Shown here: positions 30,697 through 37,898 of the stretch, one piece after another | How the letters are laid out: each line of letters starts with the position of its first letter | Numbering within the stretch: position 1 is the stretch's first letter | Origin: an uncultured SAR86 cluster bacterium | GTDB lineage: Bacteria > Pseudomonadota > Gammaproteobacteria > Magnimaribacterales > D2472 | DNA length: 64,000 nucleotides | Direction: 5' to 3' | Assembly: GCA_902517505.1 (NCBI GenBank) | Contig: CABYCL010000002.1 | Span: 1,941-65,940, forward strand | The notes under the pieces: generated by a model | The model's input: only the letters and a program-made list of their open reading frames with translations | Database searches by the model: none | Told to the model about the DNA's origin: nothing | Program-made: the position numbers and the translations under genes

Positions 30697-31949
30697 TTAA
30701 GAATGACTTTTTAAAAATAATCTCATTCACGGGCTTTGGATTTTCCTCTGGTTTGCCTTATGTATTAATTCTAATAACACTCACTGCATGGTTAAGGGAT
30801 GTAGGCATAGATTTGAGTCTTATTGGTTTTATAAGTTGGATTAGCTTAGCGTATTCAATTAAATTTCTTTGGGCGCCATTTATCGATAGATTCTCGATAC
30901 CTTTTTTAAATATTTTTGGTTCACGAAGAAGTTGGATTGTTTTGATGCAAATAATAATAATTATTTCTTTATATATACTCTCAACTATAAATCCAATAAC
31001 AAATCTTTCTTTTTTTACATTTATTGCTCTAATTATTGCTTTGGCTGGTTCAATACAAGATATTGCAATAGATGCTTATAGAATTGAAAGTGCTAAGCTA
31101 GAAGATCAAGGAAATTTAGCAGCTGGTTATCAGTTCGGATACAGAATCGCAATTTTAGTAGGGTCCTCTTTAGCATTAATAATTGCAGCTAATTTCTCTT
31201 GGTCATTTGCTTATCAATTGATGGCTTTAATATTTATTGTGAACATAGTCTTATCAATGCTCATTTCAAGTGAATCACAAAATCATGATCTACAGAAGTT
31301 AAATCATATCAATTCAATAATTGAACCATTAAAGGATTTCTTTTCTAGATTTGGTATTAAGATGGCTTCAATTCTTCTCCTAATTGTAGCCACATACAGA
31401 TTAACTGACATTGTAATGGGCCCAATGGCAAATCCTTTTTATATTGATATGGGTTATACACTTGAGGAAATTGGTTATATTGTGAAAGTAGTTGCATTAA
31501 TTGCAACAATTTTTGGAGTTTTTCTTGGCGGCATATTAATAAAAAGAATTGGTTTGTATAAATCGTTAATAATTGGTGGAATTTTAGTAATGTTTACTAA
31601 TTTATTTTTTTCTTATGCAGCCTTAAGTGAAAAGAATTTGACTCTTTTAGCTTCAATAGTAGCTTCTGATAGCATTGCAGCAGGAATTGTTGGTACTGTA
31701 AATATAACTTTTTTAACTAGCTTGGTTTCCCAAAAATATACAGGATTTCAGTATGCATTATTAACCTCATTAATGGCATTTTTAGGAAAAATATTTGCCG
31801 GATTTTCGGGTTTGATAGTTGAAAATTTTCAAAGTTTATATGGTTTTTCCATCGGATGGATGTCTTTTTATATATTTACATCGATCTTGGCTTTACCAGC
31901 AATACTTATGATCTATCAAAACAGAAGTCACTTTTCATCAACTAAATAG
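30693..31949 (+). CDS. ampG: muropeptide permease AmpG (MFS)
   Basis: Polytopic MFS protein with KFLWAPFIDR motif. ATG at 30693 makes an ATGA overlap with ampD and is preferred over the track start at 30669. Confidence 0.8.
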   Translation: MIKNDFLKIISFTGFGFSSGLPYVLILITLTAWLRDVGIDLSLIGFISWISLAYSIKFLWAPFIDRFSIPFLNIFGSRRSWIVLMQIIIIISLYILSTINPITNLSFFTFIALIIALAGSIQDIAIDAYRIESAKLEDQGNLAAGYQFGYRIAILVGSSLALIIAANFSWSFAYQLMALIFIVNIVLSMLISSESQNHDLQKLNHINSIIEPLKDFFSRFGIKMASILLLIVATYRLTDIVMGPMANPFYIDMGYTLEEIGYIVKVVALIATIFGVFLGGILIKRIGLYKSLIIGGILVMFTNLFFSYAALSEKNLTLLASIVASDSIAAGIVGTVNITFLTSLVSQKYTGFQYALLTSLMAFLGKIFAGFSGLIVENFQSLYGFSIGWMSFYIFTSILALPAILMIYQNRSHFSSTK

Positions 31950-32293
31950 TGCAACTTAGTAGATTAATATTTTTTTCTTCACTTGTTGTGGTATTTATAT
32001 TAAGCACTATAAATGCGAGCGAGATTCCAAGATTTAATTCATTATCTATGTTGTCTGACAAATTAGTACATATATTAATTTATACATACTTAAGCTATGT
32101 TGGATCTATATGTAAGTTTAAGATTTCTAATCTGACTTTAGTTTTTTACATTTTTTTATTTGGAGCATTTATTGAATTGATACATTATTATCATCCATAT
32201 AGATATTTTGAGTATTTTGACTTACTTGCAAACCTAATTGGGGTTACAATTGCGCTGCTAATAATTAGGTTAAAAAATAATTTAATCTATTGA
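31949..32293 (+). CDS. VanZ-like small membrane protein
   Basis: 114 aa with four hydrophobic segments; DKLVH..., FIELIHY and DLLANLIGV patterns typical of the VanZ family. GTG start. Confidence 0.5.
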   Translation: MQLSRLIFFSSLVVVFILSTINASEIPRFNSLSMLSDKLVHILIYTYLSYVGSICKFKISNLTLVFYIFLFGAFIELIHYYHPYRYFEYFDLLANLIGVTIALLIIRLKNNLIY

Positions 32294-32664: not shown

Positions 32665-34311
<1,647 letters not shown>

Positions 34312-34335
34312 ATCTTTGATACTATTTAAAAATTT

Positions 34336-34359
34336 GGGGCATTTTGCCCCATTTTTTTT
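34336..34359 (+). terminator. Rho-independent terminator after groEL
   Basis: GGGGC-attttt-GCCCC hairpin (34336-34350) followed by a run of 8 T; an A-run lies upstream. Confidence 0.8.
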
Positions 34360-34400
34360 GTATAATTAACTTTAATAATAATATTTTTGGAGCTGCTTAA

Positions 34401-34577
34401 ATGAAAGCTATATATTTTTTACCAGTTTTTTCAATAAATTTATTTGCTCATATAAACAATACTATTCATTCTCATATGATTGATTTTTTTGTTAATTCGA
34501 TTATTTTATTTGCTTATGTTTCTTTAGGCTTAACAATGGCCCTAATTATTAGAGCAATTTATAGGAGGTTTGTATGA
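34401..34577 (+). CDS. unannotated 58-aa His-rich small membrane protein, translationally coupled to sodN
   Basis: Below the ORF-track size cutoff. ATG at 34401 is preceded by GGAG 8 nt upstream. Translation: MKAIYFLPVFSINLFAHINNTIHSHMIDFFVNSIILFAYVSLGLTMALIIRAIYRRFV. Its TGA overlaps the sodN ATG (ATGA). Confidence 0.45.
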   Translation: MKAIYFLPVFSINLFAHINNTIHSHMIDFFVNSIILFAYVSLGLTMALIIRAIYRRFV

Positions 34578-35038
34578 AAATTAAAGATGCAAGTGCACAT
34601 TGTGATATACCATGTGCTGTTTATGATCCAGGAGTAGCTCAATATGCTGCATTAAGTGTAATTAGATTTTTAGATTTAATTGGTGAGATGCCTGAAAAAA
34701 TAGAATCTAAGAAAGATCTAGCTCATTTATCTAGACTAGTTCAACAAAAAGAGGAACATGCCGTTGAAGTTAAGGATGCTGTAAAAACTATATGGGGTGA
34801 TTATTTTAAAGAGCCCCAAATGGAAAAATTTCCAGAAATTCATGATCTAACTCACTCAATCATGATGACAGCTTCTAAGTGTAAGCAAGACATTGATCGC
34901 CAGAATGGTGAAGATTTGATTGAAAAAGTTAACAGGTTTGCTGAGATATTTTGGGCAACAAAAGATGTTAAAACAGTAACTAAAAAATCTTTAAATCCAC
35001 CACATATGGATATTATCGTTCCAGTTTTAAGTGATTAA
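34574..35038 (+). CDS. sodN: nickel-containing superoxide dismutase (Ni-SOD) precursor
   Basis: An 8-aa leader (MKIKDASA) is followed by the nickel-hook HCDIPCAVYDP. AGGAGG RBS. sodX protease lies downstream. Confidence 0.9.
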   Translation: MKIKDASAHCDIPCAVYDPGVAQYAALSVIRFLDLIGEMPEKIESKKDLAHLSRLVQQKEEHAVEVKDAVKTIWGDYFKEPQMEKFPEIHDLTHSIMMTASKCKQDIDRQNGEDLIEKVNRFAEIFWATKDVKTVTKKSLNPPHMDIIVPVLSD

Positions 35039-35303
35039 TCTTCATAGAGTTAGGGGCCAAAGTATGATCCCTAATTTTAACGAAAATGATTTAGTTCTTA
35101 GCTTAAAGTATTTTCGCTCTTTAAGAGTCGATGATGTGATATTGCTTGATATCCCAAAGATTGGAACAGTATTAAAAAGAATTAAATCAATTAATGGAAC
35201 AGATATAATTATCGATGGTGATAACAAAGAGTACCCATCAGAAATTTATAATAAAAAATATAAAACCAATGATGTTATTGGTAAAGTCTTTTTTAAATTT
35301 TAA
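35031..35303 (+). CDS. sodX: Ni-SOD maturation protease SodX (S26 signal-peptidase-like)
   Basis: GQSMIPN catalytic Ser motif and LKRIK Lys motif. 90 aa, GTG start, 8-nt overlap with sodN. Confidence 0.75.
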   Translation: MINLHRVRGQSMIPNFNENDLVLSLKYFRSLRVDDVILLDIPKIGTVLKRIKSINGTDIIIDGDNKEYPSEIYNKKYKTNDVIGKVFFKF

Positions 35304-36549
35304 CGATTTTAATTTTTGATATTAAATTCTCATCTAATTCCAAAACCTCAAACCGATAATTCTCTATTTGGATACACAAGTTAGCTTGAGGAATTTGATC
35401 AAGATATTCAGTAATTAATCCATTAATAGTTTTAGCATTATCTTCAGGAATTGCCCAGCTTAAATAATTATTAAGTTCTCTAATTTTTGAATTACCATCA
35501 GTTAATATTGATCCATCTTTTAATTTAATAAATTCTTTTTCTAACTCATCCCTATCCCCACCAAATGTTCCAGTTATTTCCTTAAAAATATCCTCAACAG
35601 ATATTAAACCCTCTATTTCTCCATATTCATCTACAACCAAACCTAAACTTTGATTACTTGAGAGAAACTCTCTAAGTTGCTTCATTAGAAGGGTAGATTG
35701 AGATACAAAATATGTTTTTTGGAGTATTTTTTTATAATCCTGATTTTTTTTGCTAAAACTTTCTAAGAATGAATGAGAGTCCTTTAAATGAAGAACACCA
35801 ATCATATTATCTATTGTGTCTTTATAAACAGGCAATCTAGTATATTCAGTAGATTCAATAATTTTTGTTGCATTTCCATAGTCTTCATTAATATTTATAC
35901 CAATTATTTCAGAAGTTGGAATCATGATATCTTCTACTACAAGCTCTTCCATGCCTAAAACAGAGGAAAGCATTTTCCTATATTGTTTTGGGATTAATTC
36001 ACCAGATTCTTCAAGAAGTGTTTTAAGTTCCTCGGTATTTAAATTTTCATTTAACGAGGCATCTCTCGCATTTAATTTAAATAATTTAAGTATCAACCTG
36101 CTTAGAAAATTAGTGAAAAATATTATTGGTTTAAAGATATAAATAAGAATATTTAGAATAAAAGATGATCTTGTTGCAAAACTTTCAGGCTTTATTGTAG
36201 CCATTGTTTTTGGAGTAATTTCTGAAAAAATCAGAATCACTATAGTTAATATGACTGAACCTAATAAAACATTACCACCAAAATAATCAATCATAATTAT
36301 TGTCACAATCGCTGAGGCTAAAATATTTGCAAAATTATTTCCTACTAAGATTGCTGATAGCAACTGATCGGGTCTTTTTAAAAGGTCTAAAGCTCTTTTT
36401 GCACTTGTTTTTGATTTTTTAGATAAATTCCTAAGTTTAATTTTATTAGCAGCCATCATCCCTGTTTCAGAACCAGAAAAGAAACCACTCAAAATTAATA
36501 AGAGTATAAGTGATGAAAATAAAAATATTAAAGAGGGGTCTTCTAACAT
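35293..36549 (-). CDS. CNNM/DUF21-CBS-CorC_HlyC family transporter (YfjD/CorB-like)
   Basis: N-terminal four-TM DUF21 (GFFSGSETGMMA), a CBS pair and a C-terminal CorC-type domain. The internal ATG at 36549 (TAATG junction with the upstream gene) is preferred over the track start at 36600. Confidence 0.8.
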   Translation of the reverse strand: MLEDPSLIFLFSSLILLLILSGFFSGSETGMMAANKIKLRNLSKKSKTSAKRALDLLKRPDQLLSAILVGNNFANILASAIVTIIMIDYFGGNVLLGSVILTIVILIFSEITPKTMATIKPESFATRSSFILNILIYIFKPIIFFTNFLSRLILKLFKLNARDASLNENLNTEELKTLLEESGELIPKQYRKMLSSVLGMEELVVEDIMIPTSEIIGININEDYGNATKIIESTEYTRLPVYKDTIDNMIGVLHLKDSHSFLESFSKKNQDYKKILQKTYFVSQSTLLMKQLREFLSSNQSLGLVVDEYGEIEGLISVEDIFKEITGTFGGDRDELEKEFIKLKDGSILTDGNSKIRELNNYLSWAIPEDNAKTINGLITEYLDQIPQANLCIQIENYRFEVLELDENLISKIKIVKI

Positions 36550-37115
36550 TATGATCCAGCTATATATGAATTCATAAAATATGCTCCCAAGACAGCCCAC
36601 ATAGCAATAAAAAGACTCCTTGTAGCGTACTTAATGGGAAAATTAAAATATTTCACACCAGTCACAGTTACAACAAAGATTAACCAAGCAATAAAGGTAA
36701 AAATAGCTTTAAAAATTAAATTTGAGGTAAAAATAGATTGCATGCTAAGGCCAGAAATTAAAGAAAGTGATAGAAATAAAAGCCCAATTCCCAATAGTTT
36801 AAATACTATTTTATAGCTTCTTTCGACTGAAAATGGTTCTAGGCCCATCAAGCTACCCATTTTGATTTTTTTAACTTTTCTTTCAAGAATTAAGATTTCA
36901 TTATAAGCAATAAAAATGAACAGCAAGCTAAGTCCAGTTACCATGAAATGAATTGTCGGCAAGATAGATATAACCTCATAAGTTAACAAATATATTAAAA
37001 TGTATGATAAAGCTGACATGGTTATTGAAATAAAAAGAGAGCTTTCCTTTTGGTAGAAGACTCTAATAATAAAATAGATAACTATGCTTATAGTTACTTG
37101 GGTAATAAAACTCAT
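36549..37115 (-). CDS. YpjD-like / cytochrome c assembly (CcsA-like) family inner membrane protein
   Basis: 188 aa polytopic protein. It sits immediately upstream of the yfjD-like gene and divergent from rpsP, matching the E. coli ypjD-yfjD neighbourhood. It is shorter than E. coli YpjD. Confidence 0.5.
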   Translation of the reverse strand: MSFITQVTISIVIYFIIRVFYQKESSLFISITMSALSYILIYLLTYEVISILPTIHFMVTGLSLLFIFIAYNEILILERKVKKIKMGSLMGLEPFSVERSYKIVFKLLGIGLLFLSLSLISGLSMQSIFTSNLIFKAIFTFIAWLIFVVTVTGVKYFNFPIKYATRSLFIAMWAVLGAYFMNSYIAGS

Positions 37116-37217: not shown

Positions 37218-37898
37218 ATGGTAATTATTAGATTGGCTAGAAGTGGTTCAAAAAAGAATCCATATTATTTTATTACTGTTGCAGATGAAAGACGTCCAAG
37301 AGACGGTTCATTCATAGAGAGACTTGGTTTTTTTAATCCTTCAGCCAAAGGTCAAGAAGAAAGATTAAGAATAGATTTAAATAAGATAGAAGAGTGGAAA
37401 TCAAAAGGTGCTCAGGTTAGTGATAGAGTAGGTGCTTTAGTAAAAGAAGCTAATTTAACACCAGAAGAATTTGCGGCAAAGGTTGAAGCAAAAAAAGCAA
37501 AAGCTAATGCAAAAAAAGCTGTTTTAGCAGAAAAATTAGCAAAAGAAGCTGAGGAACAAGCTGCTAGTGAGGCTCAAGCAGAAGAAGAATCTCCAGCCGA
37601 AGAGGAAGCACCTGCTGAAGAAGAAGCACCTGCTGAAGAAGAAGCTCCAGCCGAAGAGGAAGCACCAGCTGAAGAAGAAGCTCCAGCCGAAGAGGAAGCA
37701 CCAGCTGAAGAAGAAGCTCCTGCTGAAGAGGAAGCACCAGCTGAAGAAGAAGCTCCTGCTGAAGAGGAAGCACCTGCAGAAGAAGAAGCTCCTGCTGAAG
37801 AGGAAGCACCAGCTGAAGAAGAAGCTCCTGCTGAAGAAGAAGCTCCTGCTGAAGAAGAGTCTGAAGAAAAAGATTCTTCAGAAGATGAAAAAAAGTAA
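37218..37898 (+). CDS. rpsP: 30S ribosomal protein bS16 with ~145-aa C-terminal extension (A/K-rich helix plus acidic EEEAPA array)
   Basis: The first ~80 aa ([41 protein letters not shown]...) are canonical S16. The remainder is the extension. rpsP-rimM-trmD-rplS synteny. Confidence 0.9.
37581..37850 (+). repeat. tandem 18-nt (6-codon) repeat array, about 15 units, encoding EEE(A/S)PA inside rpsP
   Basis: Counted directly: units of gaa-ga[ag]-gaa-gc[at]-cc[atg]-gc[cta]. Two subtypes alternate (36-nt super-period). The array is GC-rich relative to its surroundings. Confidence 0.95.

What the first reader, a model, noticed from the sequence alone, without database searches (positions are those of the whole stretch)
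34401..34577. Unannotated His-rich 58-aa membrane ORF translationally coupled (ATGA) to the Ni-SOD gene
A 58-codon ORF lies between the groEL terminator and sodN. It falls below the size cutoff of the supplied ORF track.

The following support it as a real gene:
- GGAG sits 8 nt upstream of its ATG.
- Its TGA (34575-34577) overlaps the sodN ATG (34574-34576).
- The sodN AGGAGG RBS lies inside its 3' end.

The product is MKAIYFLPVFSINLFAHINNTIHSHMIDFFVNSIILFAYVSLGLTMALIIRAIYRRFV. It has an N-terminal hydrophobic segment (signal peptide or TM1) and a short loop with three His plus Met and Asp (H-x5-H-x-H-M-x-D). A second TM segment and a basic C-terminus follow.

A metal-ligand-rich loop in a tiny membrane protein, co-translated with a nickel enzyme and its maturation protease, suggests a role in Ni acquisition or hand-off, or in membrane localisation of SodN maturation. 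I know of sodN-sodX pairs but not of such a third component.
Basis: partly seen in the sequence, partly recalled or inferred. Interest (0 to 1): 0.6.

Follow-up and report, generated by a model that had tools for sequence, protein, structure and literature searches.

The report
Small His-tipped membrane protein before Ni-SOD
A real, conserved 58-codon gene sits directly in front of the nickel superoxide dismutase gene in the abundant marine bacterium SAR86 and its relatives. It encodes a tiny membrane peptide with a histidine-rich tip that most likely captures nickel outside the cytoplasm for the enzyme, but no experiment has tested this.

Summary
The ORF at 34401-34577 has GGAG 8 nt upstream, an ATGA overlap with sodN, and the sodN AGGAGG inside its 3' end.

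It is a genuine gene:
- A homologous or same-architecture small ORF lies immediately 5' of sodN-sodX in all 25 SAR86-type genome loci.
- It is found in 80 of 112 assessable sodN loci overall, many with unrelated flanking genes.
- The same architecture fits only 1 of 2411 other small ORFs in those loci.
- dN/dS is 0.16-0.6, and length changes are whole codons.

The family has no Pfam or NCBIfam model, and I found no publication on it.

Its invariant features are a short signal peptide ending in A/S, a His right after that junction, then x5-7-H-x-H-x2-D/E, one TM helix and a basic tail. Part of that tail is the sodN Shine-Dalgarno read as codons.

Best reading (about 0.5): signal peptidase exposes an N-terminal His. 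A periplasm-facing His3/carboxylate tip, anchored by one helix, then captures Ni(II) for Ni-SOD. This parallels SodT, CbtB and the "anglerase" domains on HupE/UreJ permeases.

The main rival is a CutF-like nascent-chain metal sensor. It lacks the defining PP motif (0 of 80) and any stable stem-loop. Function remains inference.

The parts
34335..34351 (+). groEL intrinsic terminator hairpin, followed by a T-run
   Evidence: Terminator scan. The hairpin is conserved with compensatory changes in SAR86 loci.
34361..34366 (+). Conserved TATAAT (-10-like) hexamer directly after the terminator; candidate promoter of the small ORF-sodN-sodX operon
   Evidence: Identical 'TTTTTTTTGTATAAT' appears in the window and 13 SAR86 loci. 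The 52-aa-type loci carry a conserved TATTAAT...TAATATAG instead. No -35 was detected. The promoter role is inferred.
34389..34392 (+). GGAG Shine-Dalgarno of the small ORF, 8 nt before the ATG
   Evidence: Sequence. (T)GGAG lies 7-10 nt before the ATG in 21 of the 22 aligned genome loci, all except L022, while the surrounding bases vary.
34401..34577 (+). Small ORF, 58 codons plus TGA: the conserved sodN-linked small membrane protein
34401..34448 (+). Residues 1-16, MKAIYFLPVFSINLFA: predicted Sec signal peptide (K2, hydrophobic core, L at -3 and A at -1)
   Evidence: The -1 residue is A in 72 and S in 8 members. The -3 residue is L/V/I/A/S/M/T in 79 of 80. Hydropathy. AF2 helix 3-16. Cleavage was not tested.
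34449..34484 (+). Residues 17-28, HINNTIHSHMID: His1-x5-His7-x-His9-x2-Asp12 of the predicted mature peptide; candidate periplasmic metal site
   Evidence: H17 and H25 are invariant, H23 and A16 are at least 90% conserved. An acidic residue follows H-x-H by x2 in most members. At least 3 His occur in the first 16 mature residues in 80 of 80.
34485..34550 (+). Residues 29-50: transmembrane helix
   Evidence: Hydropathy 1.5-2.4. AF2 helix 21-57 with pLDDT 95-97 for residues 31-50. Six- or seven-codon deletions in relatives fall here.
34551..34574 (+). Residues 51-58, RAIYRRFV: basic cytoplasmic tail, dual-coded with the sodN ribosome-binding site
   Evidence: Sequence. In relatives the tail codons likewise spell GGAG-type SDs, for example KRRDV, KKEK and KGDINV.
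34563..34568 (+). AGGAGG Shine-Dalgarno of sodN, inside the small ORF (codons Arg55-Arg56)
34574..35038 (+). sodN (Ni-SOD precursor; leader MKIKDASA then HCDIPC); its ATG overlaps the small-ORF TGA (ATGA)
   Evidence: Pfam Sod_Ni 4.3e-44. 97% identical to a SAR86 single-cell genome.
35031..35303 (+). sodX (S24/S26-type maturation peptidase, GQSMIP motif); its GTG start overlaps the sodN stop (GTGATTAA)
   Evidence: Pfam Peptidase_S24 1.3e-8 and S26 5.8e-4. The G.SM.P motif lies downstream of sodN in 108 of 109 loci.

Best explanation
The ORF encodes a member of an uncharacterised family of very small bitopic inner-membrane proteins. The family forms the first gene of a small ORF-sodN-sodX operon.

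Proposed mechanism, with inferred steps marked:
1. The 16-residue N-terminus acts as a Sec/YidC signal peptide. Signal peptidase I cuts at the invariant A16|H17 junction (inferred from sequence rules).
2. The mature peptide of about 42 residues is held by one TM helix, with its basic tail in the cytoplasm. Its first 12 residues face the periplasm at the membrane surface. These are His1, His7, His9 and Asp/Glu12, plus the free alpha-amine of His1 (topology inferred from the positive-inside rule).
3. This N-terminal-His site binds Ni(II). It raises the nickel supply for cytoplasmic Ni-SOD, either by handing Ni to an unidentified permease or by self-association into a minimal conduit (inferred).
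4. Tight translational coupling (ATGA, then GTGATTAA) makes the peptide, the SodN precursor and the SodX protease in fixed proportion from one mRNA (shown from sequence).
For: Real gene:
- 25 protein clusters at 64-100% identity, and more with profiles.
- Only 24 representative clusters in 1.84 billion proteins, all 52-79 aa with the same layout.
- dN/dS 0.16-0.62, and a codon-position pattern of 36/25/50 variable columns.
- Indels are whole codons.

Linkage to sodN:
- The ORF is directly 5' of sodN in 25 of 25 SAR86-type genome loci. It is also there in non-SAR86 loci L026 (by architecture only; HMM E 0.18), L027 and L029, and in metagenome loci L037-L041, where the flanking genes differ.
- 80 of 112 assessable loci are HMM-positive.
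- The architecture filter hits 73 of 112 loci next to sodN, against 1 of 2411 small ORFs elsewhere.

Motif:
- The A|H junction and three His are invariant or nearly so.
- The -1 residue is A or S in 80 of 80, and -3 is aliphatic or small in 79 of 80.

The same slot holds nickel-permease-type genes elsewhere:
- A 141-aa HupE/UreJ-like gene with signal-A|H sits upstream of sodN in L115 (Pfam 22.0 bits against a cut-off of 23).
- The cyanobacterial sodT permease sits next to sodN and sodX (PMC4284471).
- The AH[PST]GHDH subfamily aligns to the HupE N-terminus with 81% hhalign probability.

Precedents:
- An N-terminal His exposed by signal-peptide cleavage is a general metal chelator. It tips the 'anglerase' domains tethered to HupE/UreJ-2 permeases (PMC12537917).
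- CbtB is a 1-TM His-rich partner of the cobalt transporter CbtA (PMC3596284).
Against: - No experiment, transcript or peptide data exist.
- One TM helix is not a recognised transporter, and no partner permease lies in the locus or in the 64-kb window (crude motif scan only).
- The window protein shows no detectable similarity to HupE/UreJ.
- About 30% of sampled sodN loci lack the gene, including alphaproteobacterial-type and Chloroflexota loci, so Ni-SOD does not need it in general.
- The His/carboxylate site would also bind Cu(II) or Zn(II). Metal specificity is unknown.
- One weak family member, P0068, is not followed by sodN.
Confidence: 0.5

Rival explanations
1. It is a CutF-like regulatory upstream ORF. 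The nascent exported peptide senses periplasmic Ni through its His motif while still on the ribosome. It thereby tunes translation of the coupled sodN. The peptide itself would have no lasting function.
For: - Layout resembles CutF-like proteins: under 150 aa, a signal peptide, a metal motif, and a same-strand downstream metal-enzyme gene. His-only CutF-like clusters sit upstream of HupE/UreJ genes (PMC9973294, read).
- The sodN SD lies inside the ORF and the stop overlaps the sodN start. sodN translation is therefore probably coupled to translation of the small ORF.
Against: - The defining C-terminal proline-rich stalling motif is absent in 80 of 80 members.
- No stable mRNA structure covers the sodN SD (z = 0.41 and -1.0).
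- A conserved TM helix is unnecessary for a nascent-chain sensor, and CutF-like proteins are exported rather than anchored.
- In distant members the gap to sodN grows to tens of nucleotides, so coupling is not universal.
Confidence: 0.17
2. It is a membrane tether or partner for SodN maturation. The peptide would recruit SodX and/or pre-SodN to the membrane. Alternatively it is itself a SodX substrate or competitor, because both carry an A|H cleavage site.
For: - SodN precursors and the small protein share the A|H junction with small or aliphatic -3 residues.
- All three genes are translationally coupled.
- sodX accompanies sodN in 108 of 109 loci.
Against: - The predicted cytoplasmic part is only about 8 residues and is largely dictated by the sodN SD.
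- The conserved residues are on the predicted periplasmic side, whereas SodX here has no TM segment or signal peptide and SodN has only an 8-residue leader.
- sodN-sodX pairs work without it in about 30% of loci and in cyanobacteria, where sodT is the associated third gene (PMC4284471).
Confidence: 0.1
3. It is a periplasmic metal buffer or sensor for a metal other than nickel, such as Cu or Zn. It would protect Ni-SOD metallation from competing metals, or serve an unrelated function that merely travels with sodN.
For: N-terminal-His ('histidine brace') sites characterised so far bind Cu(II) well; the Ang-1 crystal and EPR data are for Cu (PMC12537917). The motif here contains no residue specific for Ni.
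Against: - The linkage is specific to sodN across different genomic backgrounds.
- No copper- or zinc-homeostasis gene was seen in the loci whose neighbours were examined.
Confidence: 0.1
4. It is not a functional gene. The ORF would be a by-product of conserved regulatory DNA, namely the sodN promoter, 5'UTR and SD.
For: - The ORF is short, and a chance ORF this long occurs in 1.6% of shuffles.
- Its 3' end is constrained by the sodN SD.
- dN/dS is higher than for sodN.
Against: - The reading frame, start, stop, signal-peptide rules, three His and TM hydrophobicity persist down to about 20% identity and across unrelated flanks.
- Indels come in whole codons.
- The third codon position is the most variable.
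Confidence: 0.03

Closest known systems
SodT (UreH-family putative Ni permease next to sodN-sodX in Prochlorococcus and marine Synechococcus; PMC4284471)
   Same: It is a third gene co-localised with sodN and sodX, and it is proposed to supply nickel to Ni-SOD.
   Different: SodT has six TM helices and belongs to the UreH family. The SAR86 protein has one TM helix after a signal peptide, is 51-80 aa long and has no detectable sequence relation to SodT.
HupE/UreJ nickel permeases (PF04955), N-terminal region
   Same: - Both have a signal peptide ending in A|H, so the mature protein starts with His. Further His and Asp residues sit at the start of the first TM helix.
- A HupE-like 141-aa gene occupies the same slot upstream of sodN in L115.
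- The AH[PST]GHDH subfamily aligns to the HupE N-terminus at 81% hhalign probability.
   Different: - HupE has six TM helices and the HPxxGxDH signature.
- The window protein has neither, and gives no hit to the Pfam model or to a HupE profile.
- Only 1 of 17 distant members reaches 18.8 bits, against a cut-off of 23.
'Anglerase' Ang-1/Ang-2 domains on HupE/UreJ-2 permeases, and the signal-strapping principle (PMC12537917)
   Same: An N-terminal His created by signal-peptide cleavage, tethered at the periplasmic face of the inner membrane, is proposed to capture metal ions.
   Different: Anglerases are folded domains whose flexible linker to a multi-helix permease starts around residue 175 (PMC12537917). 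Here the 'domain' is a roughly 12-residue tail on a single helix, with no permease fused.
CbtB (small subunit of the putative cobalt transporter CbtAB; PMC3596284)
   Same: It is a protein with one TM segment and a His-rich metal-binding end, linked by gene order to a cofactor pathway that needs Co or Ni.
   Different: - The CbtB His-rich segment is C-terminal, and its gene is always next to the 5-TM cbtA.
- Here the His segment is N-terminal after a signal peptide, and no cbtA-like gene is adjacent.
- No Pfam hit.
CutF-like exported uORF metal sensors (PMC9973294)
   Same: A small signal-peptide protein with a metal motif lies immediately upstream of, and is translationally linked to, a metalloenzyme gene. 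His-only clusters sit next to HupE/UreJ genes.
   Different: No C-terminal PP stalling motif (0 of 80). No stem-loop over the downstream RBS. A conserved TM anchor is present.

Membership tests
Protein-coding gene under selection | Reading frame, start and stop conserved in orthologous positions; indels in whole codons | tested here: met
   The ORF is intact in 25 of 25 SAR86-type loci and in 80 of 112 loci overall. Lengths are 50-80 aa with whole-codon indels.
Protein-coding gene under selection | Purifying selection (dN/dS < 1; third codon position most variable) | tested here: met
   dN/dS is 0.16-0.62 in 55 pairs. Variable columns by codon position are 36/25/50.
Sec-type cleavable signal peptide (signal peptidase I substrate) | Positive n-region, hydrophobic h-region, and small or aliphatic residues at -3 and -1 | tested here: met
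   K or R occupies position 2 or 3. There is a hydrophobic core of 10-14 residues. The -1 residue is A (72) or S (8). The -3 residue is L/V/I/A/S/M/T in 79 of 80. This is a heuristic; no trained predictor was available.
Sec-type cleavable signal peptide (signal peptidase I substrate) | Actual cleavage and export of the following segment | not testable with these tools
   Needs N-terminal sequencing or mass spectrometry, plus topology reporters.
HupE/UreJ nickel permease (PF04955) | Score above the Pfam gathering threshold | tested here: not met
   The window ORF gives no hit at E<=1. The best distant member scores 18.8 bits against 23, and only 1 of 17 members hits at all. hhalign of A2 against a HupE profile gives 0.8% probability.
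HupE/UreJ nickel permease (PF04955) | Six TM helices with the HPxxGxDH signature in TM1 | tested here: not met
   There is one TM helix after the signal peptide. The motif is H-x5-H-x-H-x2-D/E instead.
HupE/UreJ nickel permease (PF04955) | Precursor with a signal peptide; mature N-terminus starts with His | tested here: met
   The A|H junction is seen in real HupE sequences and is invariant in the small family.
CutF-like exported uORF sensors | Under 150 aa, N-terminal signal peptide, metal-binding motif, same-strand downstream gene | tested here: met
   The criteria are those listed in PMC9973294.
CutF-like exported uORF sensors | [quoted passage not shown] | tested here: not met
   0 of 80 members.
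CutF-like exported uORF sensors | mRNA stem-loop shielding the RBS of the downstream gene | tested here: not met
   The folds of 34500-34620 and 34368-34640 are no more stable than shuffles (z = 0.41 and -1.0).
CbtB (PF09489) | One TM segment, a His-rich C-terminus, and a gene adjacent to cbtA | tested here: not met
   No Pfam hit. The His-rich end is N-terminal. The neighbours are groEL and sodN.
SodT / UreH family | Six TM helices, with a His-rich cytoplasmic loop between TM III and TM IV | tested here: not met
   The protein is 58 aa with one TM helix after the signal peptide.
Nickel-binding or nickel-supply protein (functional class) | Binds Ni(II) and raises Ni-SOD activity or cellular Ni | not testable with these tools
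   Only indirect evidence exists: gene order, the His3/carboxylate motif and analogies.

The most novel reading that the evidence does not exclude
The mature peptide of about 42 residues is itself a minimal nickel-uptake device. Several copies would associate through their single TM helices, with the N-terminal His triads forming a ring that captures Ni(II) and passes it across the inner membrane. This would be a 'one-helix HupE' that lets genome-streamlined SAR86 feed Ni-SOD without any conventional nickel permease.
Probability: 0.12. Interest if true: 0.85.

Novelty: new variant of a known kind. Interest (0 to 1): 0.65.

Why it matters
Ni-SOD lets marine bacteria avoid using iron for superoxide defence. 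How heterotrophs such as SAR86 deliver nickel to it is unknown.

A conserved, operon-linked third gene gives that question a concrete candidate that is easy to test. The candidate is a 42-residue peptide that can be synthesised, and a three-gene cassette that can be moved into E. coli.

The finding also adds a minimal example to the emerging rule that an N-terminal His made by signal-peptide cleavage marks extracytoplasmic metal-capture proteins. It further shows that a functionally linked gene family is missed or left nameless because it falls under gene-calling size cut-offs.

Tried and rejected
- Pfam and NCBIfam scans of the window protein and 11 relatives found no family. There were only scattered sub-threshold hits: DUF6732 in 5 of 17 members (best 18.8 bits against a cut-off of 27), HupE_UreJ in 1 of 17, and TrbC. 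A literature search for DUF6732 found nothing.
- Rfam scan of 34000-35400 gave only terminator-like sub-threshold noise.
- Homology of the window protein to HupE was rejected. Similarity between A2 and A6 is limited to the signal peptide plus AH, so calling the two subfamilies one family rests on HMM hits, intermediates and position, not on profile-profile alignment.
- tblastn of the L115 HupE-like protein against plasmids found no match.
- The CutF-type stem-loop was not found.
- The AF2 model is two helices. A fold search would be meaningless and was not run.
- A crude scan of the 64-kb window for Ni-transporter motifs found nothing. This is not a proper census.
- The context of P0068 could not be read because the sample files were too large.
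- Literature searches for a sodN-linked small protein, or for SAR86 with sodN or nickel, found no description.

Full report
**1. Observation**

- groEL ends at 34311, and its terminator hairpin lies at 34335-34351.
- GGAG lies at 34389-34392.
- An ATG at 34401 follows an in-frame TAA directly.
- The ORF has 58 codons, and its TGA is at 34575-34577.
- That TGA overlaps the ATG of sodN at 34574-34576.
- The sodN AGGAGG at 34563-34568 forms codons Arg55-Arg56 of the small ORF.

sodN matches Pfam Sod_Ni at 4e-44. The next gene is an S24/S26-type peptidase, sodX. Its GTG start at 35031 overlaps the sodN stop, so all three genes are translationally coupled. No ORF of 30 aa or more lies on the opposite strand of the small ORF.

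Taken alone the ORF is only mildly unusual. In 1.6% of shuffles, the 262-nt gap contains an ATG-ORF of 58 codons or more.

**2. It is a real, conserved gene**

The window comes from a SAR86 bacterium. Its SodN is 97% identical to that of a SAR86 single-cell genome.

A protein search found 25 clusters of 51-63 aa at 64-100% identity. Profile searches added more. Some of these are named 'hypothetical protein' or 'Uncharacterized protein' in NCBI and UniRef.

An exhaustive profile search of 1.84 billion representatives found only 24 clusters. All are 52-79 aa and have the same layout.

In 36 genome loci fetched through SodN, a homologous ORF lies directly 5' of sodN in all 25 SAR86-type loci and in L027 and L029. 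L026 carries a same-architecture ORF there, but the family HMM matches it only weakly (E 0.18). It occurs exactly once per locus.

The flanks of L026 and L029 are unrelated to the SAR86 flanks and have no groEL, yet the order small ORF-sodN-sodX is kept. Divergent members looked up by exact sequence again sit before Sod_Ni and Peptidase_S24 genes, with yet other neighbours.

A metagenome scan with a SodN alignment gave 80 more loci. Over all 121 loci:
- 80 of 112 assessable loci are HMM-positive.
- A sequence-independent architecture filter is met by 73 loci next to sodN. It requires a signal-like N-terminus, [A/S/G]-H, a further His and a TM stretch.
- The same filter is met by only 1 of 2411 small ORFs elsewhere in those loci.

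Among the 58-codon orthologues, dN/dS is 0.16-0.62 in all 55 pairs. The third codon position is the most variable, at 36/25/50 variable columns. Length differences are whole-codon deletions within the TM segment.

Upstream of the ORF, GGAG lies 7-10 nt before the ATG in all aligned SAR86 loci except L022. A TATAAT at 34361-34366, right after the terminator, is conserved in the window's subgroup. This is consistent with a transcript that starts upstream of the ORF, but that is inferred.

**3. Anatomy**

Alignments show that H17 and H25 are invariant, and that A16 and H23 are at least 90% conserved. An acidic residue usually follows the H-x-H by two positions.

The residue before the first His is A in 72 members and S in 8. 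The -3 residue is aliphatic or small in 79 of 80. A Lys or Arg sits at position 2-3, and a hydrophobic core of 10-14 residues precedes the junction.

This is the signal-peptidase I pattern. It is hard to explain if the first segment were a permanent TM helix.

AF2 with the family alignment gives helix 3-16, a break at 17-20 and one long helix 21-57 (pLDDT 82).

I therefore read the product as follows:
- a cleaved signal peptide;
- a mature peptide of about 42 residues that begins with His (H1-x5-H7-x-H9-x2-D12);
- a single TM helix;
- a short basic tail.

By the positive-inside rule the His tip faces the periplasm, whether or not the signal peptide is cleaved.

The basic tail is partly an artefact of dual coding. 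In the window and its relatives the last codons spell the sodN Shine-Dalgarno, for example AGGAGG = RR and AAGGAG = KE.

A more distant subfamily occupies the same slot upstream of sodN. Its layout is signal-A|H[PST]GHDH-x6-9-[IL]H..W[IL]AP-TM-basic tail.

**4. Mechanism**

The gene order, coupling, conservation and motif are shown. That the peptide handles nickel is inferred.

The inference rests on five points:
- a. The linkage to sodN-sodX is exclusive across changing genomic backgrounds.
- b. The site combines a free N-terminal His with two further His and a carboxylate, placed at the outer face of the inner membrane.
- c. In locus L115 the same slot holds a 141-aa protein with a signal-A|H start. 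It resembles HupE/UreJ nickel permeases (Pfam 22.0 bits against a cut-off of 23; hhalign 48%).
- d. In cyanobacteria the gene co-localised with sodN and sodX is sodT, a UreH-type permease thought to feed Ni-SOD (PMC4284471).
- e. There are published precedents. An N-terminal His exposed by signal-peptide cleavage is a general metal chelator, and it forms 'anglerase' domains tethered to HupE/UreJ-2 permeases (PMC12537917). CbtB is a one-TM His-rich partner of a cobalt transporter (PMC3596284).

I therefore favour a periplasmic Ni(II)-capture and supply role at about 0.5. Whether the peptide feeds an unidentified permease or self-associates is open.

**5. Rivals**

*CutF-like sensor.* This is the most serious rival (PMC9973294). 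A small exported upstream ORF would bind metal as a nascent chain and control translation of the coupled downstream gene. Three results argue against it.
- The family lacks the defining C-terminal PP motif (0 of 80).
- No stable structure covers the sodN SD (z = 0.41 and -1.0).
- The family keeps a TM anchor.

The ATGA coupling still means that sodN translation probably depends on translation of the small ORF.

*SodX/SodN tether or SodX substrate.* The shared A|H site suggests this. However, the conserved residues lie on the predicted periplasmic side, and the cytoplasmic tail is only about 8 residues.

*Another metal.* Specificity for Cu or Zn cannot be excluded from sequence.

*Non-coding by-product.* This is effectively refuted by the conservation pattern.

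**6. Comparison and novelty**

No Pfam or NCBIfam model covers the family. Literature searches found no description of it.

It is not a member of HupE/UreJ, CbtB, SodT/UreH or the CutF-like set. In each case a defining feature was tested and not met.

Only the distant AH[PST]GHDH subfamily shows a suggestive similarity to the HupE N-terminus, at 81% hhalign probability over 42 columns. Signal-peptide and TM composition could inflate that figure. The window's own subfamily shows none. I treat common origin with HupE as a lead only.

The principle is known, namely metal capture by an N-terminal His and a third, nickel-supplying gene alongside sodN-sodX. This minimal one-helix family and its linkage to sodN appear to be undescribed. 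I therefore rate it a new variant of a known kind.

**7. Limits**

- About 30% of the sampled sodN loci lack the gene, so it is lineage-specific. Those loci include AT-rich alphaproteobacterial types, high-GC Alpha- and Gammaproteobacteria, and Chloroflexota.
- The sampling was biased toward SodN sequences similar to the query.
- One weak family member, P0068, is not followed by sodN, and its context could not be read.
- Signal-peptide cleavage, topology, metal binding and expression are all untested.

Noticed in passing
window 37218-37898 (+): The ribosomal protein S16-like ORF is 226 aa long because of a C-terminal acidic tandem repeat, about 14 copies of (EEAPAE). A typical S16 is about 80-90 aa.
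   Followed up: no
window 35031-35038: sodX starts at a GTG that overlaps the sodN stop (GTGATTAA). Small ORF, sodN and sodX therefore form a chain of overlapping, translationally coupled genes.
   Followed up: partly
window 34335-34366; L001-L022 equivalent positions: The groEL terminator hairpin is conserved with compensatory stem changes across SAR86. In the window's subgroup an invariant TTTTTTTTGTATAAT follows it immediately. This looks like a terminator and promoter packed back to back.
   Followed up: partly
L115:964-1389 (+): A 141-aa protein directly upstream of sodN has a signal-A|H start and a 'SHVLLSLDHILAFLVIG' segment. It resembles the HupE/UreJ N-terminal half (Pfam 22.0 bits against a cut-off of 23). 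It may be a short HupE-like Ni permease dedicated to Ni-SOD.
   Followed up: partly
L092, L097, L098 and L104 (upstream of sodN); L106:707-1168: A conserved protein of about 150 aa lies upstream of sodN in another lineage. It has weak TPR similarity and a C-terminal Cys motif, (P)ICDCCKASLEASW. In L106 it precedes the small His-tipped ORF. It may be another sodN-linked metal-binding or regulatory protein.
   Followed up: partly
L040:3917-4396 (-): A DtxR/MntR-type metal-dependent repressor gene (Fe_dep_repress) lies immediately after sodX in this SAR86-like contig.
   Followed up: no
window 35293-36600 (-): A CNNM/CorC-family gene (CNNM, CBS and CorC_HlyC domains; family associated with Mg/Co transport) is convergent with sodX. 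It is conserved at this position only within SAR86 loci L001-L022, so this is probably inherited synteny rather than functional linkage.
   Followed up: partly
P0068 contigs (Logan SRR26421362, SRR26421369 and SRR26421370): A 54-aa family-like protein (…AASA|HGEPNVHVHSE…, E 2.7e-4) is not followed by sodN. It is preceded, with a 4-nt overlap, by an unidentified gene of at least 151 aa that is cut by the contig end. The DNA could not be fetched.
   Followed up: partly
window 31949-32293 (+): A 114-aa hydrophobic ORF starts at a GTG that overlaps the stop of the upstream 426-aa membrane protein, and it lies just before groES. It was not examined.
   Followed up: no
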